From assembly GCA_000182565.2 (NCBI GenBank), contig KQ257466.1: a DNA stretch of 64,000 nt, one strand, 5' to 3'. This document shows positions 795-58,241 of this stretch, in pieces. The notes under the pieces are model-generated. The model was not told the DNA's origin. It worked only from the letters and a program-made list of their open reading frames with translations, and did no database searches. Each line of letters starts with the position of its first letter. Within the stretch, counting starts at the first letter, position 1. Source of the stretch: Spizellomyces punctatus DAOM BR117 (lineage: Eukaryota). The position numbers and the translations under genes are program-made.

Positions 795-2310
795 ATGACC
801 ACTTCTTCACCTCTACGAAGATCTACCCGACTTGTAGTGCAGCAAGTAACAACCAAGACGATGCAGTCTGTGGCCCCGGAGACAGCAGAGGTTAAAGGTG
901 AACGACGACGAGTTGCATCAAAGGCAGTGTCCTACAAAATTGAGGAAGTAGACGACGTGGAAGAAAGAACTGGTGCCCCCGAGACCGGCACCGAGCAAAA
1001 GAGATGGCCAAAGCAGGAGAACAACAAAAATGGGCAGGAAGACAAGCCATTGAAGCGGCGAAGGAAGAGGGCGGAGGCGGTAGATGCTATAGATGGCGAT
1101 GAGGTGAAAATGCCAGATGATGATCTAAAGACGAAGCGTCAAAAGCACCGAAACAAGGGTATCAGTGATGACAAAGATATGGTAGCATCAGGTGAACCAA
1201 CGGAAGCAGAGAAGGAGAAACCAGCGAAACGCCGAGTCACAAAAGCAAAGAGTACGGCAAATGAAGAGGATGAGAAAAGCATCAAAAAGCCCAAAAAGCC
1301 AAAGGTGGAAAAGACCATTGAAATTCCTGACATGGATACCGAATATATGTGGGCCCGTGCCAAAGCATGCAAAAAGTACGTCGGTGCGCATGTGAGTGCC
1401 GCCGGTGGAAGTCATAATGCGGTTATCACCAGTACCAAAATAGGGTATGAGCGCTCCCTTTATTTCCACAGAACCTTGTTAATATCTTTGTATCAGTGGT
1501 ACATGTTTTGCGCTCTTTGTCAAAAACCAACGCAGATGGGAATCCCCACCAACTCCTGGCTCACAAGTGGAAGCGTTCGCCAAAGCTTGCCCTCTGGCTG
1601 GCTTCTGTCCCAAGACACATGTCCTACCACATGGGTCTTATTTAGTTAATCTGGCGAACTATGAGGATGAAAGGGCCACGCAAGCTTTCAATGGCTTTGT
1701 GGACGAATTGAAACGATGCGAAGAGCTTGGGATCGGATTATACAACTTCCAGTTGAGTATCGTTGAGGCAGTGATTTTAAGAATATTGACATCTTAGCCC
1801 TAATGGNNNNNNNNNNNNNNNNNNNNNNNNNNNNNNNNNNNNNNNNNNNNNNNNNNNNNNNNNNNNNNNNNNNNNNNNNNNNNNNNNNNNNNNNNNNNNN
1901 NNNNNNNNNNNNNNGGGTGGGAATATGTCTCGACACTTGTCATATGTTTGCAGCAGGTACATGAACAGCATCTGAGCATGCGCGGGACTATATTCTTAAT
2001 CGCCCTTTCAGGTTACGATATCAGGACCCAAGAGACGTATAATGCGACACTCACCAGCTTTGACCGCATCGTTGGGCTCAAATATCTGCGCGCGATGCAT
2101 ATAAATGACAGTAAATGCCCACTTGGATCCAAGAAAGATCGCCACGAGAACCTTGGAAAGGGGGAAATTGGGCTGGAGGCGTTCAGGTGCATCATGAATG
2201 ATGAGAGAATGAACGGAATTCCGCTTGTGCTTGAGACGCCTGAGCGGGACGGTGACATGGGTTATAAGGAGGAAATCGATATTCTGTATGGATTAGTTGA
2301 GAGTAAATGA
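795..2310 (+). CDS. APN1: AP endonuclease, endonuclease IV family (multi-exon, long K/E-rich N-terminus, spans an assembly gap)
   Basis: Motifs YVGAHVSAAGG, FALFVKNQRRW (after intron ~1446-1496), LPHGSYLVNL, HINDSK..LGSKKDRHENLGKGEIG and LVLETP. Confidence 0.93.
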
Positions 2311-3762: not shown

Positions 3763-4683
3763 ATGACTGGTCCGGTGAACGCAGACCTCTACTCGGACGT
3801 CAAGATTGCCATTATTGGCGGATCGGGGCTTTATCACTTGGACAATTTGAAGGTTCTCGGCGAGATTAACCCGGAGACTCCTTGGGGACATCCGAGCGAC
3901 AAAATCATTATTTCCGAGACGCCCGACGGCCACAAGATTGCCTTTCTCGCCCGACACGGTCGTGGGCACTTTTTGAATCCGAGCGAAGTGCCTGCGCGAG
4001 CAAACATTGCCGCCCTCAAGCACATTGGCGTAGAGGTTATCCTCGCATTCTCCGCTGTCGGCTCCCTCCGCGAAGAGATCAAGCCCAGGGACTTTGTTCT
4101 GCCATCTCAAATTGTGGATAGGACAAAGGGCATTCGACCCTCAACTTATTTCGAGAATGGTGTAACAGCCCATGTTGGATTTGCTGATCCTTTTGATAAA
4201 GAATTGTCGGACATTATCTTCGCCCAGGGTAACGTTTGCGAAGGGGTGACATTCCACACGAATAAAACCCTTGTCTGCATGGAAGGACCAGCCTTTTCCA
4301 CTCGCGCAGAGTCACATATGTACCGGTCGTGGGGATGCGATATTATTAACATGTCTGTACTCCCTGAAGCAAAGCTGGCTAGAGAGGCTGAAATTGGATA
4401 CCAAATGGTCTGTATGTCAACCGACTACGATTGTTGGAAGGAAACGGAGGAAGCCGTCTCCGTGGAGGCCGTCATTGCGAACTTGGGTGCAAACTCGGAT
4501 AACGCAAAGAAGCTACTCTTGGCAGTCATCCCAGCTGTGACCAAGGCTTTGGACGCAGGAGAGCTCAAAAGTGTGGCGGCGTTGCAAGGTGCGAACAAGT
4601 ACGCTGTCATTACCTCTAAAGAAAAGCGCAACGCGGAGCAACTGAAGAAATTGGAGTATCTTCTCCCTGGCTATTTTATTTGA
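3763..4683 (+). CDS. MEU1: S-methyl-5'-thioadenosine phosphorylase (MTAP), intronless
   Basis: IAIIGGSG, TPWGHPSD, FLARHG, MEGPAFSTRAES, INMS..PEAKLAREAE and TDYDCW; ATG at 3763. Confidence 0.96.
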   Translation: MTGPVNADLYSDVKIAIIGGSGLYHLDNLKVLGEINPETPWGHPSDKIIISETPDGHKIAFLARHGRGHFLNPSEVPARANIAALKHIGVEVILAFSAVGSLREEIKPRDFVLPSQIVDRTKGIRPSTYFENGVTAHVGFADPFDKELSDIIFAQGNVCEGVTFHTNKTLVCMEGPAFSTRAESHMYRSWGCDIINMSVLPEAKLAREAEIGYQMVCMSTDYDCWKETEEAVSVEAVIANLGANSDNAKKLLLAVIPAVTKALDAGELKSVAALQGANKYAVITSKEKRNAEQLKKLEYLLPGYFI

Positions 4684-5126
4684 TTGTCTAGTGTAGAGTG
4701 ATTATGTAGATTCGATAGAGGCAGCTACCCTTCGATCGAAGCTAGATGACTTTTACTTTCATCGTCATAAGAATCATTGTAATATTAACTTTTACCGTTT
4801 GGATTGCCTCAACATAAAGGCCAAAGAGAATCTTGACTGGAAAGACTTTGTGCCTCCCATGGGACTTGACAATAATGCCACCCGCACAAACAACATCTGT
4901 AAATTACAAACCTTTTGATCGAATGACCATATAATAAAGAATCCGATATTTCGTTCATTACTGGCTGGTTGAGTTGACCACTATGAAAGAAGAACCAGGG
5001 TTCTTCCTATGCGGATTGTCTGTTGGTGTTCGAAAACCTAACTGGAGAGCTGCCATGAAAGCAGAAAAGGAGCCACGCCAGGGCGATCAAAGTCTGGCGG
5101 GCATAGTCTAAGAACGCGTCGCAACA

Positions 5127-5156
5127 TAGTGCGGAGCCGGTGGGTATTGGCACTAG
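5127..5156 (+). repeat. Left TIR of Fanzor element (includes TA)
   Basis: TAGTGCGGAGCCGGTGGGTATTGGCACTAG is the exact reverse complement of 14560-14589. Confidence 0.97.
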
Positions 5157-5242
5157 TACAGTGATTCCAACCAATTGAATCATAATTTTACTCGATTTAG
5201 ACTCATGAACTATGATTTGATAATGGTTCGATGCACAAACGA

Positions 5243-5333
5243 TGCTCCACCATTGAAAAACGGGTCCAATATGTGCGGCAATGAACGGATTGAATATTCT
5301 GCAGTTGCTCCACCATTGAAAAACGGGTCCAAT
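5243..5333 (+). repeat. 28-bp subterminal direct repeat pair in Fanzor left end
   Basis: TGCTCCACCATTGAAAAACGGGTCCAAT at 5243-5270 and 5306-5333. Confidence 0.9.
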
Positions 5334-5350
5334 GCGCAGTTGTCATATCT

Positions 5351-5447
5351 CTATATAAACCCGCCTTCTCTGCCCATTTCCCAGGTTTTCATCATTCTCT
5401 GCCGATAGGCTTTCATCATTCTCTGCCCATTTTCCAGGCTTTCATCC
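5351..5447 (+). promoter_or_regulatory. Putative Fanzor promoter: TATA box followed by pyrimidine-rich tandem repeats
   Basis: CTATATAAA at ~5351-5359, then three imperfect TTCTCTGCCC..AGG.TTTCATC units ahead of the ATG at 5468. Confidence 0.5.
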
Positions 5448-5467
5448 ATTTTTCTATTCCAATCATC

Positions 5468-5611
5468 ATGCCGCCAAAGAAAAAGCAAAAGCTTGAAAAA
5501 CTTGACAAACCCACCTTACATACCTGCAACAAAACTTCCTTTGCAAAAGCTTTCCTGCCTAATGAGACCTACCACCAACGGCTTCTAGATTACATCACCA
5601 TCATCCATCAA
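5468..5611 (+). pseudogene. Fz1: Fanzor1 nuclease, segment 1 (NLS and N-terminus)
   Basis: MPPKKKQKLEKLDKPTLHTCNKTSFAKAFLPNETYHQRLLDYITIIHQ; frame resumes exactly at 12152 after removing the Gypsy element and one TSD. Confidence 0.92.
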
Positions 5612-6100
5612 TGTAACAGGCTAGCAGGGACAAGAAGACAACAGAAAACTAGGGAAGACTTGGTTACTCTTGTTATTCTCCTTTGAGGGGCCTCAGAGAG
5701 GTCCTCTTTTTATAGACAAAGGGGCTGACAAATGCTATATCCTAACTACCCAATCAGATCTCACCCACATCATCCTAAACTATTTGTCAGCCTATTGCAC
5801 CATTTGCAACCAATCAGAACTCATACATGTCATCCTAAACTATTTGTCAGCCTATTGCACCATTTATAGCCAATCAGAAGTGAGACAAGTCATCCTAAAT
5901 ACACTGTGCCACTTGATTGAAAGGGGCAGATGCCAGTGTGTCAGAATACTCATCTAATTTAGCCAGAAATGGCTAAATCTGCTTATTTATCTAATTCTGG
6001 TCAAATGAATGCTGACACCATCAGCAAAGTCATGTGCCCACTAGTTTGGAACCACATCTAACCAGTATAACCATAGCACTGACAGAAGAATTCTGTCACA
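5612..6100 (-). repeat. 3' LTR of Gypsy element (489 bp)
   Basis: TGTAAC...GTCACA; highly similar to 11604-12146; internal CCAAT-containing tandem units. Confidence 0.96.
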
Positions 6101-6112
6101 CTCCCCCACTTT
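6101..6112 (-). other. Polypurine tract
   Basis: Minus strand reads AAAGTGGGGGAG directly abutting the 3' LTR. Confidence 0.85.
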
Positions 6113-6116
6113 AAGA

Positions 6117-8881
6117 TTAAGCTCCCTTCTGGGCTAGGAACTCCTTCAAGATTTCTCTGCCATGGGGTAGGAGGTTTTCTTCTGGTTCCCAGGTGTTCTG
6201 AGAGGAGGGATAGCCTTTCCACTTGATGAGGTAGAGATTCTTCTTCCTTCTGGTCTTGTGGTCAAGAATCTTCTCAACTTCCCAAAACTCTTCTCCTTGC
6301 TGGATAATTGGCTCAGGCTCAGGGGGTACTGGTCTGGTAGGGAAGTCCTCTGTGGGGTCCAAGTAAGGCTTGAGGAGTCTCACATGGAACACTGGATGAA
6401 TCTTCATGGTGCTGGGGAGCTCCAGGGTGTAATTCTGAAATTCATCCTTGGCCTTGATTCTGTAAGGTCCAAGCCAGGGGTGAAGAAGTTTCTGGGCTGG
6501 CCTCTGGGCTTCTTCTTCTGGGGTGATACCTTCTCTAGACAGCCAAACTTTGGAGCCTAGGGGGTAGCTTGGGGCCTTGCTGAGAGACTTGTTGGCTTGC
6601 TGAACTTGTCTTTCTTGGGCCAGTATCATGTTATCCTTGGCTACTTGAAGCAGTTGCTGAATATACTGGTGGAAGTCTGTTGCTTCAAGATCATTGCTTT
6701 CTCCTGGTGGTGTTGCTGGGGTCCTGGGATGCCGGCCATTCTCCAAGTAGAATGGGGTAGAGCCTGTGGTTTCTGAGATACTGTTGTTGTAGGTGAACTC
6801 AGCAAAGGGGAGAAGATCTTCCCAATTCTTCATGTTGTACTGCAGGAAAGCTCTGAGGTAAATCTTCAAAGTCTTGATGGTTCTCTCTGCCTGTCCATTG
6901 GTCTGCTGGTGCCTTGCAGTGGCTAGGAGGGTGTTGCAGCCTAAGAGTTGCATCAAGTTGGACCAGAATGAACTGGTGAACTTGGTGTCTCTGTCTGATA
7001 CAATCACTTCTGGGAGGCCATGGTGCTTGAAGATGTGCTTCAAGAAGAGCAGGGCCAGGTCCTTGGCTGAGGCTCTGGTGGTGGTAGGGATGAAGTGGCC
7101 TCTCTTTGACAATCTGTCAACAATGACAAAGATGGCATTGTGATCAGAGGAAGTCATAGGTAGGTCAGGGATCAGGTCAATGGAGATCTGGCTCCATCTG
7201 GTCTTAGGTACTGGGAGGGGCTGCAGCAAGCCTGCTGGTGGTTGCTGACTAGGTTTGCTTCTCTGGCAGGAATCACAAGACTTGACATACTTCTTAATGT
7301 CCTTGTACATCCTTGGCCAGTAGTAATGCCTTGCTAGGGCATCATGGGTCTTGGTGATGCCAAAGTGTCCAGCATATTGAGTGTCATGGGTTTCTTGGAG
7401 TAGGCTCAACCTTAGGTCTGGGTCACTAGGAACAAAGATCCTGTCCTGGAAATAGAGTAACCCATCCTGATGGCTGAGGTACTTGAGCCTTTGTTGCTGG
7501 TCTTCTGGTCTCCTGGGGTCATCCAAAGCTTGGATGAGCTCTTGAAGTTCTGGGTCTTCTGTGGTACTGGTCTTCAATCTCTCTTGAAGGGTGCTGGTGG
7601 TGTGGGTCACAGCATTCAACTCTGCTGTCACCAAGGCCTTGCACTTGATGCATCTTGGGGCCAGGTCTGGTCTTCTAGACAGGATGTCTGCCACTGTGTG
7701 GAGTCTTCCTGGGCCATAGCCAATCTCAAAGTCAAAAGATTGGAAATTCATGACCCATCTGGCTTGTCTTCTGGTCAAGAAGGGCTGGTTCTGTAGCCAC
7801 TTGAGGGACTGGTGGTCTGAGATAACTTTGAAGGGGGTTCCTTCCAGGTAGGGCCTCCAAACTCTGAGGGCATCATGGATGGCTAACAGCTCTTGTTCTC
7901 TGGTGTCATATCTGGTCTCTGCTGGAGCCATCTTCCTGGAGTGGTAGGCAACTGGTCTCATGCCTTTCCCATCATCCTGTCCAAGCCATGCTCCAACTGC
8001 ATAGCCTGAGGCATCAGGGAAGACAGTGGTAGGCAAGGCTGGGTCAAAGGGTCTGAGTACAGGGGCTTTGGTGACCATATCCTTCAGCTGCTGAAAAGCT
8101 TTCTCCTGAGGTTCAGACCAGGTCCAGGGCTTGTCATTTCTCAACAGGTCTGTCAATGGTGCAGCTTGCTCTGCCAGGTCCTCCAGAAAGCTATGGAAGT
8201 AGTTCACCAGGCCCATGAACTGTCTGACTTCAGTGACACTCTGAGGGGTGGGCCATTCTTGAACAGTCTGCACTTTCTTGGGATCAAGCTTGACTCCTTC
8301 ATGTGAGACTACATGGCCAAGAAACTCTACTTCTTGCTTGAGGAACTGGCACTTGCTGGGGTTGGCATACAGCTTGTTCTGCCTGAGGGCTTGCAGAACC
8401 TGCTTGAGGTGGTCCAGGTGATCTTCTGGGGTCTTGGAGTAGATGAGGATGTCATCTAGGTAGACAATAACAAAGATGTCCAAGAAGGGTCTAAGGACAT
8501 CATTCATCAAAGTCATGAAAGTGGCTGGGGCATTGGTCATTCCAAAGGACATGACCAGGAACTCAAAGTGACCATATCTGGTTCTGAAGGCTGTCTTGGG
8601 GATGTCTTCTGGGTGGACTCTGATCTGGTAATAGCCTGACTTCAGATCTAGCTTGGTAAACACCTGGGCTCCATTCAGCCTATCCATCAGCTCATCAATC
8701 CTAGGGAGGGGATATCTGTTCTTGATGGTGATTTTATTCAGAGCCCTGTAGTCCACACACATCCTCAAAGACCCTTCTTTCTTCTTAACAAAGAGGATAG
8801 GTGCTCCAAATGGGCTCTTGGATGGTCTGATGTGGCCTGCCTCCAGAAGTTCTGAAAGCTGCTTCCTCAGTTCTTCTAACT
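6117..8881 (-). CDS. pol: Gypsy pol: RT, RNase H, integrase, chromodomain (5' part lost in gap)
   Basis: [15 protein letters not shown], RNase H DASG, HHCC (H-x6-H...CDSC), integrase D-D-E (IDLI, SDRD, AER), GPY motif, chromodomain [26 protein letters not shown]; frame open from the gap to the stop. Confidence 0.96.
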
Positions 8882-9775
8882 NNNNNNNNNNNNNNNNNNN
8901 NNNNNNNNNNNNNNNNNNNNNNNNNNNNNNNNNNNNNNNNNNNNNNNNNNNNNNNNNNNNNNNNNNNNNNNNNNNNNNNNNNNNNNNNNNNNNNNNNNNN
9001 NNNNNNNNNNNNNNNNNNNNNNNNNNNNNNNNNNNNNNNNNNNNNNNNNNNNNNNNNNNNNNNNNNNNNNNNNNNNNNNNNNNNNNNNNNNNNNNNNNNN
9101 NNNNNNNNNNNNNNNNNNNNNNNNNNNNNNNNNNNNNNNNNNNNNNNNNNNNNNNNNNNNNNNNNNNNNNNNNNNNNNNNNNNNNNNNNNNNNNNNNNNN
9201 NNNNNNNNNNNNNNNNNNNNNNNNNNNNNNNNNNNNNNNNNNNNNNNNNNNNNNNNNNNNNNNNNNNNNNNNNNNNNNNNNNNNNNNNNNNNNNNNNNNN
9301 NNNNNNNNNNNNNNNNNNNNNNNNNNNNNNNNNNNNNNNNNNNNNNNNNNNNNNNNNNNNNNNNNNNNNNNNNNNNNNNNNNNNNNNNNNNNNNNNNNNN
9401 NNNNNNNNNNNNNNNNNNNNNNNNNNNNNNNNNNNNNNNNNNNNNNNNNNNNNNNNNNNNNNNNNNNNNNNNNNNNNNNNNNNNNNNNNNNNNNNNNNNN
9501 NNNNNNNNNNNNNNNNNNNNNNNNNNNNNNNNNNNNNNNNNNNNNNNNNNNNNNNNNNNNNNNNNNNNNNNNNNNNNNNNNNNNNNNNNNNNNNNNNNNN
9601 NNNNNNNNNNNNNNNNNNNNNNNNNNNNNNNNNNNNNNNNNNNNNNNNNNNNNNNNNNNNNNNNNNNNNNNNNNNNNNNNNNNNNNNNNNNNNNNNNNNN
9701 NNNNNNNNNNNNNNNNNNNNNNNNNNNNNNNNNNNNNNNNNNNNNNNNNNNNNNNNNNNNNNNNNNNNNNNNNNN

Positions 9776-9898
9776 GGTTCTCTGGAGTTCTGGGGTTCTC
9801 AGGGGTCCTGGGATTTTCTGGGTTTCTGGGGTTCTCTGGGATTCTGGGATTCTCTGGGTTTCTGGGGTTCTCTGGGATGCTGGGGTTCTCTGGGGTTC
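9776..9898. repeat. 18-bp tandem repeat (GGGGTTCTCTGGGTTTCT-like) between gag and pol, running into a gap
   Basis: Minus-strand translation gives (RTPETQ)n-like units. Confidence 0.85.
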
Positions 9899-10048
9899 CA
9901 GGTAAAGTCCATGGATAGTTAAAGTCTCAGGGGTGGTTTCAGGTGGGTCCAATAGGTCCAAGGGTTGAATAAAGGAGAGTGTACCAGGTGGTGGGTGTCA
10001 GGGTGGTGGTTCTTATATCTTCCCCAGTAGAGGCAGAACCTCTATCTT

Positions 10049-10739
10049 CTACTGAGTCTGCTTGCCATTTCCCTGCTGCTTGGTCTTCAAGGGGCAGAGG
10101 GGGGCAATATGGCCTGGTTTTCTGCACCTGAAACAGGCTCCCTTCTTTCTGAGCTCAGTCTTCTCAGCCTCAGTGAGTTTGGAGAGAGGCTTCCCAGAGT
10201 TGGTGGATATACTATCTATCTCCATAGGGACTACTCCAGAGTTCTCAGTCTTGGGGGAGTAGTAGCTGGTGGCCTGGCTTCTTCTCTGGTAGCTGAACTG
10301 GATCTGGTCAATCCTATCAGCTGCTGCTGCAGCTGTGGCTAAGTTGATGGTACTGGTGGGGTTGAGCTCCAGTTGTTCCTGAACCCTGGGTTTAAGCCCT
10401 CTGATAAACTTGTCTAACTTTTCAGCTTCTGACAAGTCATCCACCTGAAGGCATAAAGTATTGAACTGGTTTAGGTACTCCTTTACTGAGCCTTGTTGTT
10501 TGAGCCTGGCCAACTGGTCTCTTGCTGCTCTGGTGGCATTTGCTGGGAGGAAGTTCTCTTGAAGGGCTCTCTTGAACTGGTCCCAAGACTGGATTCTGAG
10601 AGGGGATCCTACTGGGTGGTTCTTGACATGGCTTTGCCACCAGACTTCAGCATGGAGTTCCAAGTAGGTGGTGGCTACTAACAGTTGGCCTTCTGGTGAT
10701 AGATCTGCAGCTGCCTGGAAGTACTCTTCAAGTCTGAGG
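10049..10739 (-). CDS. gag: Gypsy gag (N-terminus in gap) with zinc knuckle
   Basis: Retrotransposon gag signature (AEVWW...SWDQFK...LKQQGSVKEY...FIRGLK), PMEID and CFRCRKPGHIAPLC. Confidence 0.92.
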
Positions 10740-11044
10740 NNNNNNNNNNNNNNNNNNNNNNNNNNNNNNNNNNNNNNNNNNNNNNNNNNNNNNNNNNNNN
10801 NNNNNNNNNNNNNNNNNNNNNNNNNNNNNNNNNNNNNNNNNNNNNNNNNNNNNNNNNNNNNNNNNNNNNNNNNNNNNNNNNNNNNNNNNNNNNNNNNNNN
10901 NNNNNNNNNNNNNNNNNNNNNNNNNNNNNNNNNNNNNNNNNNNNNNNNNNNNNNNNNNNNNNNNNNNNNNNNNNNNNNNNNNNNNNNNNNNNNNNNNNNN
11001 NNNNNNNNNNNNNNNNNNNNNNNNNNNNNNNNNNNNNNNNNNNN

Positions 11045-11200
11045 ATGTTGCAGTCAAGATAGGGTGGGTCACAGGCCCAAGAGTATGCAATGTTACTTGC
11101 AGTCAAGATAGGGTGGGTCACAGGCCCAAGAGATGCAATGTTACTTGCAGTCAAAATAGGGTGGGTCACAGGCCCAAAATATGCAATACTACTTGCAAGT
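11045..11200. repeat. About 48-bp tandem repeat in the Gypsy 5' leader, running into a gap
   Basis: Three copies of TTGCAGTCAA(G/A)ATAGGGTGGGTCACAGGCCCAA. Confidence 0.85.
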
Positions 11201-11593
11201 ACAACTGGTGGGGAGGATACAGGGGGACTCTACAGCTTCTTCACAATCCCACAATAGAAAAGCTCTATCTGTTTTATCAGAGCTTCTGATGCTAACCAAG
11301 TGGTGTGTCTGGTGGTAGTTCTGGAGGTTGTGCTGGGGGTAGGTTTGTGGTATGGGATGGTGTGGGCTGGTCTGTAGGAGTCCTTGAGGGGGGTTCTGGG
11401 CATAAGTTGGGTCTGGGATAAGAGGCAGGGGTCTTCTGATATTACTCAGAAGGACTAAGGCTGGGTCTGGGGTCTGGGGTCTGTTGGTCTTCTGATATTA
11501 CTCAGAAGGTCTAGGGCAGGTTCTGGGGGTCTGGGGATCTTAGCTTCTGATCTCTCACAGAAGGTCTAAGAGTCTGGGGTTGTTGTCTAAGGT

Positions 11594-11603
11594 GGTGCTA
11601 CCA
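11594..11603 (-). other. Primer-binding-site-like sequence
   Basis: Minus strand TGGTAGCACC immediately follows the 5' LTR; resembles the tRNAi-Met PBS (TGGTAGCG) of Ty3. Confidence 0.6.
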
Positions 11604-12146
11604 TGTAACAGGCTAGCAGGGACAAGAAGACAACAGAAAACTAGGGAAGACTTGGTTACTACTTGTTCTCCCTTTGAGCGGCCTCAGAGAGGTCCTCTTT
11701 TTATAGACAAAGGGGCTGACAAATGCTATATCCTAAGGGGCCTCAGAGAGGTCCTCTTTTTATAGACAAAGGGGCTGACAAATGCTATATCCTAACTACC
11801 CAATCAGATCACATGTCATCCTAAACTATTTGTCAGCCTATTGCACCATTTGCAACCAATCAGATCTTGTACATGTCATCCTAAACTATTTGTCAGCCTA
11901 TTGCACCATTTATAGCCAATCAGAAGTGAGAGAAGTCATCCTAAATACACTGTGCCACTTGATTGAAAGGGGCAGATGCCAGTGTGTCAGAATACTCATC
12001 TAATTTAGCCAGAAATGGCTAAATCTGCTTATTTATCTAATTCTGGTCAAATGAATGCTGACACCATCAGCAAAGTCATGTGCCCACTAGTTTGGAACCA
12101 CATCTAACCAGTATAACCATAGCACTGACAGAAGAATTCTGTCACA
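11604..12146 (-). repeat. 5' LTR of Gypsy element (543 bp)
   Basis: Same termini as the 3' LTR; carries an extra 59-bp tandem duplication (11678-11736 and 11737-11795). Confidence 0.96.
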
Positions 12147-12151
12147 ATCAA

Positions 12152-12522
12152 CTTGCCGACCATGCTTCCCACGCGCTGAAATTCTATCTCCTTTCATCAG
12201 CGCCAGTTTTTCCCACAGTAAATCAAGAGACGATTGAAGCCATCCTCTATCTTCTCAACAAAGGTGAATCATGGCAACCAAAAACCGGTGCGAAGAAGGC
12301 ATTACGCGAATCCTTGTTGCCATACATTCGTTGGTACTGCCACATCGTTGGCTTCGTTCATCCAAATCTACAAAAAGAGCAGCAATCAGTCAATTACCTG
12401 ACAGCAAGTATGATGGCGAATCTGAAGGTCAACATCCAGGAACACTTCATGATGATGCTGCTCCGGTACATTAATCTGCGGCTCGACGTGAAGGGACAGA
12501 AGCAGCGACTGCCACTGAAAAG
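12152..12522 (+). pseudogene. Fz1: Fanzor1 nuclease, segment 2 (REC region)
   Basis: LADHASHALKFYLL...MLLRYINLRLDVKGQKQRLPLK; in frame with segments 1 and 3. Confidence 0.92.
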
Positions 12523-13122
12523 TGTAACAACGAGGACGTCTTCGAGAGATCGCGAGTAAGCCCAAATCGGACGCAGGAAGCATGAATCGCGTGACCAACT
12601 CCACCGATTGGGTTACCGTGACCGAAAAAACCAGTTCAGAGAATGGCAATTGGCGCATTAGATTTCAGCGTGCCTTGTACAACCTGTGGAGGCCCGAGCC
12701 AGTGTGGAAAAGGAAGAGATTGGTACCGCCACCAATAAATCAGTTGCGGTGCAGTGACACCCATTAGTTTAGTTTAGTTTAACAGTTTATCCAAGAATCT
12801 TGTATAAAAAGGATGTATTCAATAAAATAAGTCAGGGGCAGAAGCCGTAGTGACACTAAATCCCCATAACTCGCTTCTCAACTCCAATCTTAGGTTAACA
12901 GGAACCTAACAGAGTGCTTCAACGGCCTGATCACCTGTACTGAAGCCTCTAAATCCTGCTCGGTTCACAACTAACCGACTCTCCTTGCCTCTTGCCCCCA
13001 AGTCGCTACCGACGCCCAAAGAAAGGATTCGGAGACTATGATTCCTAGTACGGCCACCCACATAACCTGCTAGGAGACCCAAGTCGTCTTTACCGTAGTC
13101 TACCAACAAAAAATCCGCTACA
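12523..13122. mobile_element. Solo LTR (600 bp) of a second LTR-retrotransposon family, nested in Fanzor ORF
   Basis: TGTAAC...GCTACA termini; 4-bp duplication AAAG (12519-12522 and 13123-13126); TATAAAA and AATAAA inside; removal restores the frame (PLK-S-DARKAFF). Confidence 0.85.
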
Positions 13123-13126
13123 AAAG

Positions 13127-14501
13127 CGATGCGCGGAAAGCTTTCTTTGCTCGTCTTCACTACTTGAAGTCGGTTTTCCTTTTCAAAACCATGCCAGAAT
13201 CGCTGGATGACTTGACTGCTGAAGAGAGTGAACTTCTAGAAGAGATTTGGTCCCTTAACATTCCCCTTTCTGACGACCAGCCACTCGCATATTCCGTTGC
13301 TGTAGACCCTCTCGTGTTCTTTCCTGCATACTGTCGGTTGTCAAGCCTATATGAAAAGCATGGATTTCGACAGTTCAGTGCGATACCTCTGTGCCGCTCG
13401 CTCATTCAAAGTCACGTGCGAATGGACACCATCATCCTGTACCAGCATATCCTTTGCATCACGCAGTGAGACACAGAAACTGTCGAAAAGGATGATCTGT
13501 GGTTGCGCGTCTGTAATCTGTGGAACAAGGCTTTTAGATCTCGCCACGGTATGCAGTTTGAAGGCTCGATCACGACGGATGGAACCTCAGTGTCTGTATA
13601 CCTAAAGCACCCAGAAGCAGACAAGTATGGAAAGCGCAGAGCGAGAAAGTCAGCAAACATGGTGGCAGCGGAGGTTAAAGTGCAATACATGGAGAAAAAC
13701 TTACCTGCTTGTCGAGCAGCAGAGAATGTCGTCGTTATCGACCCAAACAAGCACGATATTCTCTACTGCCAAGACAACAGTGGTATGACATTTCGCTACA
13801 CCGCCAACCAGCGAGCTGTGGAGACTGGAAGCCGTCGATTTGCAACAGAACGGCAGCAGATGAAGAAGGAAGCGGGAATGGACCTCATAGAATCACGTAT
13901 CCCTAGTCACAAGACAATGAACCTCATGGACTTCATGCGCTATCTCCTTGTTCGGCGCGCTGATTGGGATCGTCAAAAGGACTTCTATTCGCATCCTGCC
14001 CACACGTGGTGGAAGTGGCATGCATTTATAAACCGTCAGAAGAGTGAATCGAACCTCATATCCAACTTACGCAACAAGTACGGTGAAAACTTTACCATTG
14101 TGATGGGAGATTGGAGCGATGCCGGTTGAACTGCAAGATTTCAGACCTCATCAAAGACGAAAGGTTGGCGCACCCTCTTTAAGCGCAACAGGATCAACTG
14201 CTTCCTTCTCGACGAGTATAAAACCTCATCTGTCTGCCCTCACTGTTCATCCGATGACTTCCTTGAAAAAGGTTTCAAAACACGACCTCATTCAAGACCT
14301 TGGCGACGACGAGAAGGCAAGATTGAAAAAGTCCATGGATTGCTGGGTTGTACCAACCCTAACTGTCAGCAAGCCTGGACGATGCGCTACTGGAATCGAG
14401 ATACGCTGAGCACCTGCAATATGCTGATAATCGTGCAATCAATGTTGGATGGACACAGTAGACCAGAAGTGTTCAGCAGGAGTGTTCCAGCCGTAGCTTA
14501 G
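13127..14501 (+). pseudogene. Fz1: Fanzor1 nuclease, segment 3 (WED, RuvC, zinc finger) with two in-frame TGA stops
   Basis: SITTDGTSVS, RuvC-I VVVIDPN, VMGDWS, RuvC-II LLDEYKTS, CPHC...CTNPNC, RuvC-III WNRD, ending RPEVFSRSVPAVA*; stops at 13467-13469 and 14127-14129. Confidence 0.95.
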
Positions 14502-14515
14502 ATTGGTTAGATTAG

Positions 14516-14604
14516 GTTTTCCGAGCCGGTTGTCGCCGGTTCAATCCCTGGTGCGGGTGCTAGTGCCAATACCCACCGGCTCCGCACTAGCTTGTCCTTG
14601 CAAC
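14516..14604 (+). ncRNA. Fanzor omegaRNA (scaffold 14516-14589 plus about 15-nt guide from flanking DNA)
   Basis: Starts just after the ORF stop and overlaps the right TIR; hairpin GAGCCGG/CCGGTTC and stem GTGCGG/CCGCAC; matches my recollection of the SpuFz1 omegaRNA; guide GCTTGTCCTTGCAAC (guide length assumed). Confidence 0.88.
14560..14589 (-). repeat. Right TIR of Fanzor element
   Basis: CTAGTGCCAATACCCACCGGCTCCGCACTA. Confidence 0.97.
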
Positions 14605-14633
14605 TTAAGTCATCCGCCACTTTTCAACAAACG

Positions 14634-15732
14634 ATGGCTTCCGAAACGATTCCCGCCCGCTTCGGCCATATCCGGCGTTACTTTGCGCTCTTCCTCCTCC
14701 TTACTGTGATTATTGGTGTGAGCGCATACGAGGACACTGTTCCGTTGATTCTATGGAGTGGCAAAAAGTAGCCGTCATGGTGCTCCCTGTCCGTTGAACC
14801 TGCACCTTACTTGAGTCGTCTATTTCTTTTCCAGATTTTCAGTTCCAAGTACCTCCTCCATACTCCGGAGATCAGACTTGTCGCCAGTGTTTGGAAACGT
14901 CGGTTGTCGGAAACTGAATGTGGTCTTTGAACAGAAAGATGTGCGCATGTCGTGTATCTGTCGCTACTCCCCTGCTACATCATTTAACACAAACATTTAT
15001 ATAGCTTCACGCCTTGGATCTTCCTCATTTGTCTCCCGCAACCAAAAAGTTGAAACGATCAGTAGACTCTGCTCCTTCGAGCCTCAAAATATCATTTGTT
15101 GCGGCCGCAAATGATGTGAAAGATGTCGTGGAACATATCCAGGATGCATGCCAGAAAGCTGGGCAGGAGGCTGTCGTTCTGAAAATTGGAGAAGGTATGA
15201 TCGACCACGGAGGGAGAAATAAAACTATCAAGATAATAACGCATGTTTGGTCCCTAATACAGATGGGTCGGTACCTGATCTCAGTGATGGAAAAAGTTAC
15301 ATCCTGGTCGCTAGTTTGAAGCCTCTTCGCGCCGCTTCAGCAGCAGAACACGTCGAGACAATGACCGAAAATGACAACGTTATCGACAAGGTGCTGACCG
15401 ACATCACCAAGCTGGAACAAGACGATTGGACAGCTGTGTTTACCGGTGTATCCAACCCTTCGGTGCGTCCACGCTGTTTGGTTGATGTATTGTTACCTGT
15501 AGACTCACCAGTGCATACGCAATTACAGACGCTGCGAAAGCGAGCTACTCAAGCCACCCCCTTGCCATGGAGCAAGCGCCCCATCTTCCAGAAATACGTG
15601 TTTTTCAATCAAGGTCTCTTCATGTGCATTTTCGCGATGGTGCCTCTCGTGATCATCGGATTACTTGGCGTACGAATCATTAGCAGTATTCAAACGCCCA
15701 CTCGCTATGAAACCAAGAAGAAGGAAAAATAG
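14634..15732 (+). CDS. Voa1/Big1/Ac45-like ER type I membrane protein (multi-exon)
   Basis: Signal peptide followed by VPLILWS; C-terminal IFQKYVFFNQGLFM, TM helix, IQTPTRYE and dilysine tail KKKEK. Confidence 0.75.
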
Positions 15733-20398: not shown

Positions 20399-20533
20399 GT
20401 TTGCTTTTGTTTTGCGCTTGCTATTAGGAGTGCCTCTGTAAAGAAGGGAGAGCAGAAGGAAGGCCTTTTATAAAGCGGAAGCTACAAGATGCCAGTACAC
20501 AGCAAGACGCAGCATGACTCATCGACCGTGTCA

Positions 20534-21280
20534 TAATCGGACGTGATTGAAAATGGCACTAGGACCCATTATTATCCGGATTAATCCGGTTAGTCATATC
20601 GCATAATCAGCACCCCCATCTATCACTCAAAGCGGTGTGGCATGGATGCTAATGTTCTCCAAACTGCGGTGAGGCATGCTAATGTAACGTTTTGTCTTTT
20701 TCAGCTGGACCCCATTTTGCCACAATCGAGGTCTATAAAAGGGGGGCCTTTTGCTGTCTCTCCCCTTCCTCACCAGTTCCTCGACTCTCAAACCATCTGC
20801 GCAACTCTCATCGCGACTCGGTCCAATCATGAGAATGCAGATGTGGTGGTGCCGAGGACCTCGACCGCCCGACAGCAATCGTGATCAGAACCAGCGGCAA
20901 CCAATTGGATCCGATAACAAAACCTACTATTATGCTGCTACACTTGTTGAGCTTGGTTGGTAAGTACCAATGGCATTTCTTTTCATTCTGTCATTCATCT
21001 CGCTGACATGCAGTTTTTAGTCTCCAAGCCTTGTCACTGAAGATCCTCCAGCTTGCGAGTCTCCCCAATGTTGCGAAGACTCTGGCTTCAATGCCATCAA
21101 GAGTTCTGGATCAAGGCCTAGTAGGGACCGTGTGTGGTGGTGGGCAATTATCCGGTTACAACCAACCGTTACGTATTGCGTGTATAATTGTCTAGTAGTA
21201 GCTTAGCTTTTCCGAACCGGTTGTCGCCGGTTTATTCCCTGGTGTAGTAGCTAGTGCCATTTTCTGTCACCTCTACACTA
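20534..21280 (+). mobile_element. Non-autonomous Fanzor-family 'ghost' element (imperfect TIRs, omegaRNA, no nuclease ORF)
   Basis: CATA at 20532-20535; left end GTGATTGAAAATGGCACTAG matches the reverse complement of right end 21251-21270 at 18/20; right end carries an omegaRNA-like scaffold ending in CACTA. Confidence 0.75.
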
Positions 21281-21295
21281 ATCGACAAAAGATGT
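21207..21295 (+). ncRNA. Second omegaRNA-like RNA (scaffold to 21280, guide ATCGACAAAAGATGT)
   Basis: 21208-21280 aligns ungapped to 14517-14589 at 56/73 by hand count, with compensatory stem changes; preceded by GTAGCTTAG as at the Fanzor ORF end. Confidence 0.82.
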
Positions 21296-56004: not shown

Positions 56005-58241
56005 CTACACTTCCTCAATCTTCAAACTCTTTTTATATTGGTTCACCACTCCAGCACCATCACCCACCTTCCCTTCAAATCGTGTCAATTTGCCCTGATC
56101 GCATACCCAAACTTCATTGCACACGGCATCCAGGAATCGCTCATCGTGGGATACGATCGCGATGCCTCCTTTGAATTCCCGTAACGCAGAGGCAAGAGCA
56201 TCAATGGAATCCATGTCCAAATGATCTGGTGTGAGTGAGACGCGTTAGATAAATTATTAGTGTAGGGTGAAATTAGAGGTCATTCTTACTGGTCGGTTCA
56301 TCCAAAACCAGGACATGAGGATTGGTCATAGCCATCCACGCGAAAACGGCTCGACTCTTTTGACCTCCACTGAGGGTCCCAATAGGTTGCAACGCAGTCG
56401 TGCCCGTCAAACCAAACCGTCCCAGTACTCGTCGGTAATCCTCTTCTTGCATTCCAGGGAATTTGCTCTGTAAAAATTGCACACTGCTCGCTCCAAGCTC
56501 CAATTGATCGACATGGTGTTGACTAAACAAGGCTATTCGTAGTCGGCCATGTCTTGACACCATACCCTTTTGTGGCTCCACTTGCCCTGTCATGAGGCGA
56601 ATGAGAGTGGATTTACCAGCTCCATTCGGACCGACAACAGCAATCTTTGAATCCATTTGCAAATCAAATGAGACGCCGCTGAGAATAGTTCGCTGTTCGT
56701 TGTAACCAAATGTGACTTCTTCCATTCGGAGAATCGGTGGAGACAGCTTTTCTGGATCAGGAAACCGAAAGTAAATGTCCTGTCCTTCCCCAGAAATTCC
56801 CTCCATATCATCTTTTGGTGGTGGTTCAAGCGGTGGTAGCTTTTCAAGAATCTTAATCTTTGATTGAGCCTGTGCTGCTCGCTTCGCATTGTACCTCCAT
56901 CGGTCAATAAACGCTTGCAAATGCTGTCGATACTGTAACTGCGCCTCGTATTCACGCAACTGGTTCTTTCGCCTCTCAGCTTTGGTCCCAACAAATGTAG
57001 AGAAATTTCCACGATAATAATCCAGTAAACCATCATGCAAATGCAGGATATCCGTTGATACCGCGTCCAGGAACGATCGATCGTGGGAAACAATCAGTAA
57101 CGTTGCCTGCCACTTTTGGAAGTATCTTTCCAACCACACCACAGCGGGAAAATCGAGATAATTTGTCACTTCATCGGCAAGCAACAGATCTGGCTTACAA
57201 AAGAGAGCTCGCGCCAACGCCAAACGCATCCTCCAACCACCGCTGAACGTTTTTGTCGCCGCCCGTTGCTGTTCAGGCGAAAATCCTAAACCGTTGAGAA
57301 TGGATGAGGCCTTGGATTCAGCGGTATCCGCGTCAATCTCTTCCAGCCTTTGGTACACCTCCTTTAACCGTTTTGTCATTGTTTCAGCAGCCTCTGGAGT
57401 GGTAGTCGACTTTGACAGCGCCGAATTCAACTGCTTCTCCTCCGCCAAAAGCGCTGTTCGCTCCTTATCTGCTTGCAATACAGACGCCAACGCGGGCGTA
57501 TCGTCACCCGCAATCTCCTGTCCACGTGCNNNNNNNNNNNNNNNNNNNNNNNNNNNNNNNNNNNNNNNNNNNNNNNNNNNNNNNNNNNNNNNNNNNNNNN
57601 NNNNNNNNNNNNNNNNNNNNNNNNNNNNNNNNNNNNNNNNNNNNNNNNNNNNNNNNNNNNNNNNNNNNNNNNNNNNNNNNNNNNNNNNNNNNNNNNNNNN
57701 NNNNNNNNNNCACTGGGATCGCATCCGGATCGTACAACCCACCCCTCGCCGCCTTTTTTTCTGCCAACTTTTTCTCAGCAGCCCGTAACTTTCTCTGATC
57801 CACCGTGGATGATTTAGGTCCATTCGTCGAGTGTCCATGTCGAATGTCCCCAATATTCGCCCGTGTAAATTCCAGCGTCGTGGATACAGTTTGGTTCATC
57901 ACGACTGGCCCATCCAATGCTACGACACCTCCATGAGCGAGCGACTGCTTTGTTGACGGTGTGAGAGCAGCCAGTTTTTCACATAGCGCGTCAATCTCGT
58001 CTTTTGAACTCCCTGCTTCGCTTAGGAGCGGCTCCAGAAAGTCTTGAAGACCTTCCTGGCTTCGATCGCTTGAGGGATCGTCAAAATACCCCAAGACCTG
58101 GAAATGACCAGAAACAATCAGTTACCATTTTGTTCATGCTAAAAGTCGAGTTTAGAAGCGTACATAATCCCTCAACTCCCCATCTAAATGAGGAGCCGCC
58201 TCCCGAATGAAGACCGAAATCTCTTTTGTCGAGGGAGCCAT
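56005..58241 (-). CDS. GCN20: ABC-F family ATPase Gcn20/ABCF3 (multi-exon, spans gap)
   Basis: FSGGWRMRLALARALF, QAFIDRWRYNAKRAAQAQSKIK, GPNGAGKST, LSGGQKSR and LDEPT.HLD. Confidence 0.92.

What the first reader, a model, noticed from the sequence alone, without database searches (positions are those of the whole stretch)
5127..14604. Complete but fragmented eukaryotic RNA-guided nuclease locus (Fanzor1 + omegaRNA + TAM) hidden under two nested LTR insertions
Seen: joining 5468-5611, 12152-12522 and 13127-14501 gives 1890 nt in one frame (629 codons plus stop). It encodes an NLS (PPKKKQK), RuvC D/E/D motifs (IDPN, DEYKTS, WNRD) and a CxxC...CxxxxC zinc site. The ORF lies between perfect 30-bp TIRs, with CATA at the left junction and a structured RNA overlapping the right TIR. 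Established: this is the Fanzor1 (eukaryotic TnpB relative) layout; SpuFz1 uses a CATA TAM and a guide read from the right flank. Inference: the guide GCTTGTCCTTGCAAC plus CATA specifies the empty insertion site. The family is described; this copy is a resurrectable divergent variant that ORF callers miss.
Basis: partly seen in the sequence, partly recalled or inferred. Interest (0 to 1): 0.9.

Follow-up and report, generated by a model that had tools for sequence, protein, structure and literature searches.

The report
Broken copy of known SpuFz1 Fanzor
This is a decayed extra copy of the already well-studied Fanzor RNA-guided nuclease transposon of the soil fungus Spizellomyces punctatus, split by two other mobile-element insertions, so it is real but ordinary.

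Summary
Perfect 30-nt inverted repeats lie at 5127-5156 and 14560-14589. The three ORF pieces align end to end with the solved Spizellomyces punctatus Fanzor1 (SpuFz1, PDB 8GKH), at chain residues 396-445, 446-569 and 571-1032. The joined reading is 1890 nt / 629 codons with two in-frame TGA, and is 83% identical to SpuFz1 (522 of 626). The RuvC D/E/D residues, the CCCC zinc site, CA+TA (CATA) at the left junction and a two-stem RNA over the right repeat are all present.

The interpretation as Fanzor1 is right. The claims of novelty are not. This is a paralogue of the prototype family itself: SPu-1 of Bao & Jurka 2013, SpuFz1 of Saito et al. 2023. Saito et al. report 42 Fz loci in this genome, about 82% protein identity among copies, CA upstream of the 30-nt repeats, a 75-nt scaffold with a 14-15-nt guide, and loci with Gypsy/Ty3 inserted in the Fz gene.

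The copy is a pseudogene. It carries a 6.5-kb Ty3/Gypsy element, a 599-nt probable solo LTR and two stops. It also has changes at three nucleic-acid contact residues (R96K, R291Q, R387H). "Resurrectable" is untested and doubtful. Expression of its omegaRNA could not be resolved. Already known; low interest.

The parts
5125..5128 (+). CATA at the left junction: CA of the flank plus TA, the first two bases of the left repeat (or a TA target-site duplication). It equals the published SpuFz1 TAM.
   Evidence: Sequence. TAM and the 'CA upstream of the 5' IR' are from PMC10432273.
5127..5156 (+). Left 30-nt terminal inverted repeat.
   Evidence: exact match, 0 expected by chance.
5157..5467 (+). 5' non-coding part of the element, with short tandem duplications (28-nt repeat at 5243/5306; 24-28-nt repeats at 5366-5446).
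   Evidence: families D7-D9.
5468..5611 (+). Fanzor1 ORF piece 1 (aa 1-48, MPPKKKQK...).
   Evidence: aligns to 8gkh_P 396-445, E 3.5e-23.
5612..12146 (-). Full-length Ty3/Gypsy LTR retrotransposon with chromodomain. LTRs at 5612-6100 and 11604-12146; 5-bp duplication ATCAA. 894 and 305 bases inside it are masked as N.
   Evidence: Pfam RVT_1 4.3e-43, RT_RNaseH 3e-32, Integrase_H2C2 6e-25, Chromo 4.7e-19, Retrotrans_gag 1.9e-20. LTRs 97.3% identical over 415 nt. Duplication.
12152..12522 (+). Fanzor1 ORF piece 2 (123 aa plus 2 nt of a split codon).
   Evidence: aligns to 8gkh_P 446-569, E 8.1e-58.
12523..13121 (.). 599-nt insertion with TG...(C)A ends and a 5-bp duplication AAAAG. Probable solo LTR of another family (inference).
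   Evidence: No other copy in the window.
13127..14501 (+). Fanzor1 ORF piece 3 (1 nt of the split codon, 457 aa, stop). In-frame TGA at 13467-13469 and 14127-14129. Holds RuvC D/E/D and the zinc finger.
   Evidence: aligns to 8gkh_P 571-1032, E 9.8e-266.
14516..14589 (+). omegaRNA scaffold (74 nt, or 75 if counted from 14515): stem-loop 1, linker, and a long stem 2 with an 8-nt loop. Its last 30 nt are the right repeat.
   Evidence: Fold. With position 1 at 14516, 6 of 6 scaffold nucleotides named in the paper (U5, C6, C7, U16, G17, G20) match. With 14515, 3 of 6 match.
14560..14589 (-). Right 30-nt terminal inverted repeat.
14590..14604 (+). Flank-derived 15-nt guide GCTTGTCCTTGCAAC (predicted, not shown to be transcribed here).
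   Evidence: Sequence. Guide length 14-15 nt from PMC10432273 section 7.

Best explanation
The locus is a dead copy of the SPu-1 / Spu-1 DNA transposon of Spizellomyces punctatus. That family encodes the characterised Fanzor1 nuclease SpuFz1.

An intact element has these parts:
- It is about 2.1 kb long, with 30-33-bp terminal inverted repeats and a TA at each junction.
- It has one ORF for the RNA-guided RuvC nuclease.
- Its right end is transcribed into an omegaRNA: a roughly 75-nt scaffold that overlaps the right repeat, plus 14-15 nt of right flank as guide.
- The nuclease cuts double-stranded DNA that carries 5'-CATA next to a guide match.

How the site logic works at this locus:
- The left flank ends in CA and the element starts with TA. 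An unoccupied site would therefore read CA-TA-right flank, which is TAM plus target.
- The occupied site reads ACTA before the guide match, so it is spared.
- By analogy with TnpB, cutting the empty allele would let the element be copied back by homologous repair. This last step is inference; it has not been shown for Fanzor.

In this copy the protein gene has been destroyed by a 6.5-kb Ty3/Gypsy retrotransposon, a 599-nt probable solo LTR and two nonsense codons at Arg positions. It also has substitutions at DNA/RNA contact residues. The repeats, the CATA junction and the scaffold are still intact. The most the locus could do today is supply a guide RNA to paralogous Fz proteins in trans, as the published 'ghost' loci do.
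For: - Colinear, gap-free tiling of the three pieces on 8gkh_P: residues 396-445, 446-569 and 571-1032, with E 3.5e-23, 8.1e-58 and 9.8e-266.
- P0004 (SPPG_07727, 638 aa) is the 8GKH protein: residues 2-638 on chain 396-1032, 1493 bits. The joined reading is 522/626 = 83% identical to it.
- Of the 26 residues the paper names as catalytic or nucleic-acid contacts, all 26 sit at the stated number in P0004 and 22 are kept in this copy, including D383, N385, E541, D606 and W570.
- 22 of 48 homologues with E <= 1e-10 are named S. punctatus DAOM BR117 proteins. None is identical to this copy; the best is 86% over 86% of the query.
- The neighbouring MTAP-like protein (3763-4680) is on record exactly, in NCBI/UniRef/EukProt, on a 566,506-base contig. 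P0004's contig has the same length.
- Exact 30-nt repeats; CA+TA junction and target-site duplications of both insertions; RNA fold z -2.96 with two stems and an 8-nt loop, as described for the canonical omegaRNA (PMC10432273).
- In contigs of runs X1 and X2, sequence matching the element runs on from 14589 into unrelated flanks. That marks 14589 as the element boundary in other copies (table 7).
- The only match to CATA+guide in the window is the occupied junction, with 2 mismatches, both in the TAM.
- Literature read here: PMC10432273 (passages; sections 7 and 11 in full); PMC3627910 (passages: SPu-1, about 2,100 bp, 33-bp TIRs, putative TA duplications, 17 full-length copies).
Against: - No significant hit of any piece to Pfam TnpB-type models. 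The best is PF07282 at E 0.14, 12.8 bits against a cut-off of 26.3. Intact SpuFz1 also hits nothing in this library copy.
- No Rfam family matches the RNA.
- Without the two insertions the element is 2,319 bp, somewhat longer than the published ~2.1 kb. The 5' tandem duplications may account for this.
- Transcription of this locus's own omegaRNA was not shown. Of 3313 RNA reads of run X24, 3302 fit only partly and carry other flanks, so they come from other loci.
- The homing role of Fanzor is a proposal in the literature, not a demonstrated fact. No transposase is known for Spu-1 (PMC10432273 section 11).
Confidence: 0.96

Rival explanations
1. The locus still matters as a 'ghost-like' guide donor. 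Its protein gene is dead, but the intact right end is transcribed and its omegaRNA programs paralogous Fz proteins to cut the empty site CATA+GCTTGTCC..., which helps retain the element.
For: Scaffold, repeat and CATA junction are intact. The paper shows that ghost-locus omegaRNAs work with SpuFz1 in human cells, and proposes action in trans (PMC10432273). A C/T difference at 14576, which most other copies carry, changes a predicted G-C pair to G-U, so this copy's scaffold stays foldable.
Against: No read was shown to cross the 14589/14590 junction. The RNA depth at 14507-14566 comes from other loci. The scaffold may be 1 nt shorter than the canonical 75 nt. Contigs of three runs show a minority form with an extra G after 14536 (table 4).
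Confidence: 0.3
2. The gene is still functional: the two insertions are removed as introns and the TGA codons are read through or recoded.
For: Removing the inserts restores the frame exactly.
Against: The insert borders are TG...CA with target-site duplications, not GT...AG. The first insert is a complete 6.5-kb retrotransposon on the opposite strand. Paralogues have Arg where this copy has TGA. Neighbouring genes use the standard code, for example the MTAP-like ORF, which is found exactly in public protein sets.
Confidence: 0.01
3. The arrangement is an assembly artefact: a mis-join of a Fanzor copy with retrotransposon sequence.
For: The region is repetitive and multi-copy. No single contig of the laid runs spans the whole stretch.
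Against: Both insertions have exact 5-bp target-site duplications, and excising them restores a colinear ORF to the residue. A mis-assembly would not produce that.
Confidence: 0.02

Closest known systems
SpuFz1 / Spu-1 (SPu-1) element of Spizellomyces punctatus DAOM BR117 (PDB 8GKH; Saito et al. 2023, PMC10432273; Bao & Jurka 2013, PMC3627910)
   Same: Same family and very probably the same genome. Shared features: full-length colinear protein homology (83% identity), 30-nt repeats, CA upstream of the left repeat, omegaRNA scaffold over the right repeat, a 15-nt flank guide, RuvC triad and CCCC zinc finger.
   Different: This copy is a pseudogene. It has two insertions in the ORF, two TGA at Arg292 and Arg512 (SpuFz1 numbering), the changes R96K, R260Q, R291Q and R387H, five small in-frame indels (13 alignments), and a 5' non-coding region that is about 200 bp longer.
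Spu-1 loci with Gypsy/Ty3 inserted in the Fz gene (Saito et al. 2023, section 7: 11 loci with further genes between the repeats)
   Same: The same kind of locus: a Ty3/Gypsy element inside the Fz ORF, between intact repeats.
   Different: I could not see the paper's Supplementary Data 1-2 (closed), so I cannot say whether this very locus is among the 42 listed.
Ghost Spu-1 elements (omegaRNA-only loci, Saito et al. 2023)
   Same: An intact right end or scaffold with no working protein gene. One such ghost lies in this window at about 20534-21280. Its scaffold is 85% identical over 61 nt and has the same stem 1.
   Different: Ghost loci never carried, or have wholly lost, the ORF, and their repeats differ at several positions. 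This locus keeps the Fz-type repeats and the whole, broken ORF.
ISDra2 TnpB / IS200-IS605 omega systems
   Same: They work alike: a RuvC nuclease guided by an RNA read from the right end into the flank, with the TAM supplied by the left junction, so that the empty site is the target. This is established for TnpB (cited in PMC10432273 section 11) and inferred for Spu-1.
   Different: No Pfam-level sequence match was found here. Spu-1 has inverted repeats and a TA junction rather than subterminal hairpins. It has no TnpA and no known transposase, and its omegaRNA lacks the pseudoknot (PMC10432273 section 11).
Parasitella parasitica Fanzor1 (PDB 9CF0)
   Same: The second-best solved relative: E 3.4e-43 over the RuvC/NUC half.
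   Different: Far more distant. It aligns in two stretches only.

Membership tests
Fanzor1, SPu-1/SpuFz1 family | Full-length colinear homology to SpuFz1 | tested here: met
   The three pieces tile 8gkh_P 396-1032 without overlap. Identity to P0004 is 522/626. P0004 is the 8GKH protein.
Fanzor1, SPu-1/SpuFz1 family | RuvC catalytic residues D383, E541, D606 (plus N385) | tested here: met
   All four are kept in the alignment, in the motifs IDPN, DEYKTS and WNRD.
Fanzor1, SPu-1/SpuFz1 family | CCCC zinc finger in the NUC domain | tested here: met
   CPHC and CTNPNC align with CPRC and CTNPNC of 8GKH (alignment). The CCCC motif is named in PMC10432273, Extended Data legend.
Fanzor1, SPu-1/SpuFz1 family | 30-nt inverted repeats with CA upstream of the left repeat | tested here: met
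   The feature is as stated in PMC10432273 section 7.
Fanzor1, SPu-1/SpuFz1 family | About 75-nt omegaRNA scaffold spanning the right repeat: two stems plus linker, with an 8-nt loop in stem 2 | tested here: met
   The fold shows the 8-bp stem 1, the linker, and the long stem 2 with an 8-nt loop. 6 of 6 named nucleotides match with position 1 at 14516. The canonical RNA sequence itself was not available to align.
Fanzor1, SPu-1/SpuFz1 family | Open reading frame able to give an active nuclease | tested here: not met
   Two insertions and two in-frame TGA, plus R96K, R291Q and R387H. The locus is a member by descent and a pseudogene by state.
Fanzor1, SPu-1/SpuFz1 family | omegaRNA of this locus is expressed with its own guide | tested here: inconclusive
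   the reads over the scaffold come from other loci, and none was shown to cross into 14590-14604.
Fanzor1, SPu-1/SpuFz1 family | CATA-dependent, guide-dependent DNA cleavage | not testable with these tools
   Needs biochemistry. Only the sequence prerequisites were seen.
TnpB / OrfB_Zn_ribbon (Pfam models) | Significant match to a TnpB-type Pfam model | tested here: not met
   Best hit PF07282 at E 0.14, 12.8 bits, below the cut-off of 26.3. Intact SpuFz1 and a second paralogue also give 0 families, so the test has no power for this family. The precomputed label PF26935.1 on all close homologues is not in the library copy I could search.
Ty3/Gypsy chromovirus-type LTR retrotransposon (the first insertion) | LTRs with TG..CA ends, a 5-bp duplication, gag, RT-RNaseH-integrase order, and a C-terminal chromodomain | tested here: met
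   The protease and part of RT and gag lie in masked N stretches and were not seen.

The most novel reading that the evidence does not exclude
A Fanzor element whose nuclease gene has been dead for a long time may keep an intact TAM junction, repeats and omegaRNA because the RNA end alone is still used. On this reading the locus acts as a guide donor for paralogous Fz proteins, which cut its empty site and so preserve it. It would be a 'ghost locus in the making', and would show how ghost Spu-1 elements arise from Fz-bearing ones.
Probability: 0.25. Interest if true: 0.3.

Novelty: already known. Interest (0 to 1): 0.1.

Why it matters
It matters little for biology. The family, its RNA, its TAM, its structure, its copy number in this genome and even Ty3/Gypsy-disrupted copies are already published. 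The locus is a clean worked example of an omega-type element that keeps its ends and RNA module after its protein gene has decayed, and it shows that such copies are invisible to gene callers: no protein record matches it. As a source of a new editor it adds nothing over the 19 full-length paralogues already known.

Tried and rejected
- Whole-genome search of the window's own assembly: not held. Other genomic copies could not be fetched or aligned at the DNA level.
- Pfam on the pieces: only sub-threshold noise. Pfam on intact SpuFz1: nothing.
- Rfam on 14300-14800 at E <= 1: 0 matches. No curated omegaRNA family fits.
- Sequencing runs: no RNA holder was listed for 14380-14760.
- Laying RNA run X24 and contig runs X1-X3 on 13127-14900:
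  - Depth was about 1877 over 14507-14566, but 3302 of 3313 reads fit only partly.
  - The reads carry an A>T at 14544 (1626 of 1737) and foreign sequence on both sides.
  - They therefore belong to other, ghost-like loci, and expression of this locus stays open.
- First attempt to translate the retrotransposon pol used a wrong frame. It was corrected.
- My first hand count put scaffold position 1 at 14515. The script showed only 3 of 6 named nucleotides matching there and 6 of 6 at 14516.
- I first read the upstream TGA as Arg291. The alignment shows it is Arg292, with Arg291 changed to Gln.
- The bacterial-type promoter/terminator scan of the second insertion is not meaningful for a eukaryote.
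- The solo-LTR reading of the second insertion rests only on its ends, size and duplication. No related full element was found in the window.
- Supplementary Data 1-2 of Saito et al., which list the 42 loci, could not be seen. I cannot say whether this locus is listed there.

Full report
**What is in the sequence.**
- A perfect 30-nt inverted repeat bounds 5127-14589: 5127-5156 and 14560-14589, with 0 mismatches. None of 100 shuffles gave two matches. It extends to 38 nt at 92% complementarity.
- Three open stretches lie inside on the + strand: 5468-5611, 12152-12522 and 13127-14501.
- Joined by coordinates they give 1890 nt, read as 629 codons. There is one split codon (AGC) and two in-frame TGA, at joined residues 286 and 506 (window 13467-13469 and 14127-14129).
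- Read alone from 13127 the third stretch is out of frame.

**The two interruptions.**
- 5612-12146 is a complete Ty3/Gypsy retrotransposon on the minus strand.
  - Pfam hits: RVT_1 4.3e-43, RT_RNaseH 3e-32, Integrase_H2C2 6e-25, Chromo 4.7e-19, Retrotrans_gag 1.9e-20, Ty3_capsid 4.3e-11.
  - Its TG..CA LTRs are 97.3% identical over 415 nt, and the 3' LTR carries a 59-nt internal duplication.
  - It has a 5-bp target duplication, ATCAA.
  - 894 and 305 bases inside it are masked as N, so the protease and parts of RT and gag were not seen.
- 12523-13121 is a 599-nt insert that begins TGTAACA. It is flanked by AAAAG on both sides and has no other copy in the window. I read it as a solo LTR of another family, which is an inference.
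- The two inserts lie side by side in the ORF, not one inside the other.

**What the ORF is.**
- The three pieces align without overlap or gap to the MBP-SpuFz1 chain of PDB 8GKH:
  - piece 1 to residues 396-445 (E 3.5e-23);
  - piece 2 to 446-569 (E 8.1e-58);
  - piece 3 to 571-1032 (E 9.8e-266).
- Residue 570 is the split codon.
- P0004 (SPPG_07727 of S. punctatus DAOM BR117, 638 aa) is that protein: residues 2-638 on chain 396-1032, 1493 bits.
- The joined reading is 522/626 = 83% identical to P0004. It is 78-84% identical to the eight full-length named paralogues compared, P0004 among them, which are 77-88% identical to each other.
- Saito et al. give about 82% for the family (PMC10432273 section 7).
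- Of 48 homologues at E <= 1e-10, 22 are named S. punctatus DAOM BR117 proteins. The others are from other chytrids or unnamed records. None is identical to this copy, so no gene model exists for it.
- The upstream neighbour (3763-4680, an MTAP-like ORF by my reading) is on record exactly, on a 566,506-base contig. P0004's contig has the same length.
- The window is therefore very probably from S. punctatus, and from the contig that also carries the characterised SpuFz1 gene.

**State of the protein.**
- I checked the 26 residues that the paper names as catalytic or as DNA/RNA contacts (passages). All 26 stand at the stated number in P0004, and 22 are kept here. These include D383, N385, E541, D606, W570, Q129, Q130, N133 and Y345.
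- Four are changed:
  - R96K, a TAM contact; one paralogue shares it.
  - R260Q, common among the paralogues.
  - R291Q, a TAM contact; one paralogue shares it.
  - R387H, an omegaRNA contact; unique among the 12 sequences compared.
- The two TGA stand where SpuFz1 has Arg292 and Arg512.
- There are five small in-frame indels relative to SpuFz1 (alignments).
- The zinc-finger cysteines (CPHC, CTNPNC) are kept.
- This is a pseudogene of some age. Reverting two codons would not restore the reference contact set.

**The RNA end and the site logic.**
- 14515-14604 folds into an 8-bp stem-loop, a short linker and a long stem with an 8-nt loop. The energy is -37 kcal/mol, z -2.96, and 2 of 200 shuffles fold as well.
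- This is the architecture the paper gives for the canonical SpuFz1 omegaRNA: two stems and a linker, with an 8-nt hairpin loop in stem 2.
- With position 1 at 14516, all six scaffold nucleotides named in the paper (U5, C6, C7, U16, G17, G20) match. With 14515 only 3 of 6 match.
- The scaffold here is thus 74 nt, or 75 with one more 5' base.
- Contigs of three runs show a minority form with an extra G after 14536 (table 4).
- The left junction reads CA|TAGTGCGG and the right junction reads CCGCACTA|GCTTGTCC.
- Bao & Jurka describe SPu-1 as having 33-bp TIRs and putative TA duplications (PMC3627910). Saito et al. describe 30-nt repeats with a conserved CA upstream.
- Either way, an unoccupied site would read CATA+GCTTGTCCTTGCAAC, which is the published TAM plus this locus's guide.
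- The occupied site reads ACTA before the same 15 nt. It is the only match in the window, with two mismatches, both in the TAM.
- The paper reports that mutating any TAM base abolishes cleavage, so the occupied site should be immune.
- The idea that cutting the empty site serves retention or homing is taken from TnpB. Saito et al. offer it only as a possibility for Fanzor, and found no transposase for Spu-1 (section 11).

**Expression.**
- No RNA holder was listed for the locus.
- RNA run X24 gives depth of about 1877 over 14507-14566. However, 3302 of 3313 reads fit only partly, carry A>T at 14544 (1626 of 1737) and run on into foreign sequence on both sides. They come from other, ghost-like loci.
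- Contigs of X1 and X2 leave the stretch at 14589 into unrelated flanks. This confirms that 14589 is the family's right boundary (table 7).
- Whether this locus's own omegaRNA is made remains open.

**Comparison with what is known.**
  - 42 Fz loci, 19 of them full length, and 134 ghost loci;
  - 30-nt repeats with CA upstream;
  - a 75-nt scaffold plus a 14-15-nt guide;
  - the CATA TAM;
- SPu-1 is the prototype from which Fanzor was first defined.
- I could not see the supplementary locus lists, so I cannot say whether this exact locus is among the 42.
Intact SpuFz1 also hits no Pfam-A model in this library copy, so these blanks say nothing.

**Verdict.** The identification as Fanzor1 is correct. 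'Divergent, resurrectable variant' and the high interest score are not supported. The locus is a decayed paralogue of an already characterised family. The one open and mildly interesting question is whether its intact RNA end still works in trans.

**Seen in passing.**
- The Ty3/Gypsy insert has 2 CpG in 5,336 visible bases (o/e 0.01). Every other 1-kb bin of the window outside the element has 0.65-1.18. Both LTRs are CpG-free, so the depletion predates the insertion, yet the visible pol and gag frames are open.
- A 2025 paper states that in Spizellomyces 5mC is confined to transposons (PMC12695648, passages). That offers a cause.
- One literature search found no paper that reports this near-total CpG loss. 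The three hits do not address it in the listing, and for PMC12695648 in the passages I saw.
- A ghost Spu-1 element lies at about 20534-21280.

Noticed in passing
window 5612-12146: The Ty3/Gypsy retrotransposon is almost free of CpG: 2 CpG in 5,336 visible bases (observed/expected 0.01, at 6733 and 11679), with TG 1.21 and CA 1.42. All 1-kb bins outside it have CpG o/e 0.65-1.18. Both LTRs lack CpG, yet the visible pol and gag frames are open. The depletion is therefore a property of the element's lineage, not post-insertion decay. 5mC is reported to be confined to transposons in Spizellomyces (PMC12695648, passages). The second insert (o/e 0.89) and the Fanzor pieces (0.86) are not depleted.
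   Followed up: partly
window 20532-21295: A 'ghost' Spu-1 element without a Fz ORF. Its right-end scaffold is 21206-21280, 85% identical to the Fz-locus scaffold over 61 nt with an identical stem 1. Its right repeat is 21251-21280, its flank guide is 21281-21295, and CA at 20532-20533 precedes the left repeat. The outer half of the left repeat has diverged: arms of 23 nt at 87%. Between the two scaffolds the outer stem-2 pairs change on both sides (CG/CG to UA/UA), as read from the alignment.
   Followed up: partly
window 14507-14566: RNA run X24 holds very many reads (depth about 1877) that share only 14512-14553 with this locus and have other sequence on both sides. Ghost-type or other Spu-1 right ends are abundant in RNA of that organism label.
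   Followed up: partly
window 13464-13469 and 14127-14129: Both nonsense codons are TGA where SpuFz1 has Arg, and the adjacent R291Q is CAG. All three are the kind of change a CpG transition from CGN would give.
   Followed up: no
window 14624-14900: The gene just right of the element (ATG at 14636, 47 nt after the right repeat) has a GT..AG intron at 14768-14834, seen as a joint in a contig of run X3. The predicted guide lies in that gene's upstream region.
   Followed up: no
window 3763-4683: An intronless 306-aa ORF lies upstream of the element. By my own reading of its sequence it looks like methylthioadenosine/purine nucleoside phosphorylase; I did not test this with a family search. It is found exactly in public protein sets.
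   Followed up: partly
window 1807-1914, 8882-9775, 10740-11044, 57530-57710: Four runs of N (108, 894, 305 and 181 bases). Two of them hide parts of the retrotransposon's coding region.
   Followed up: no
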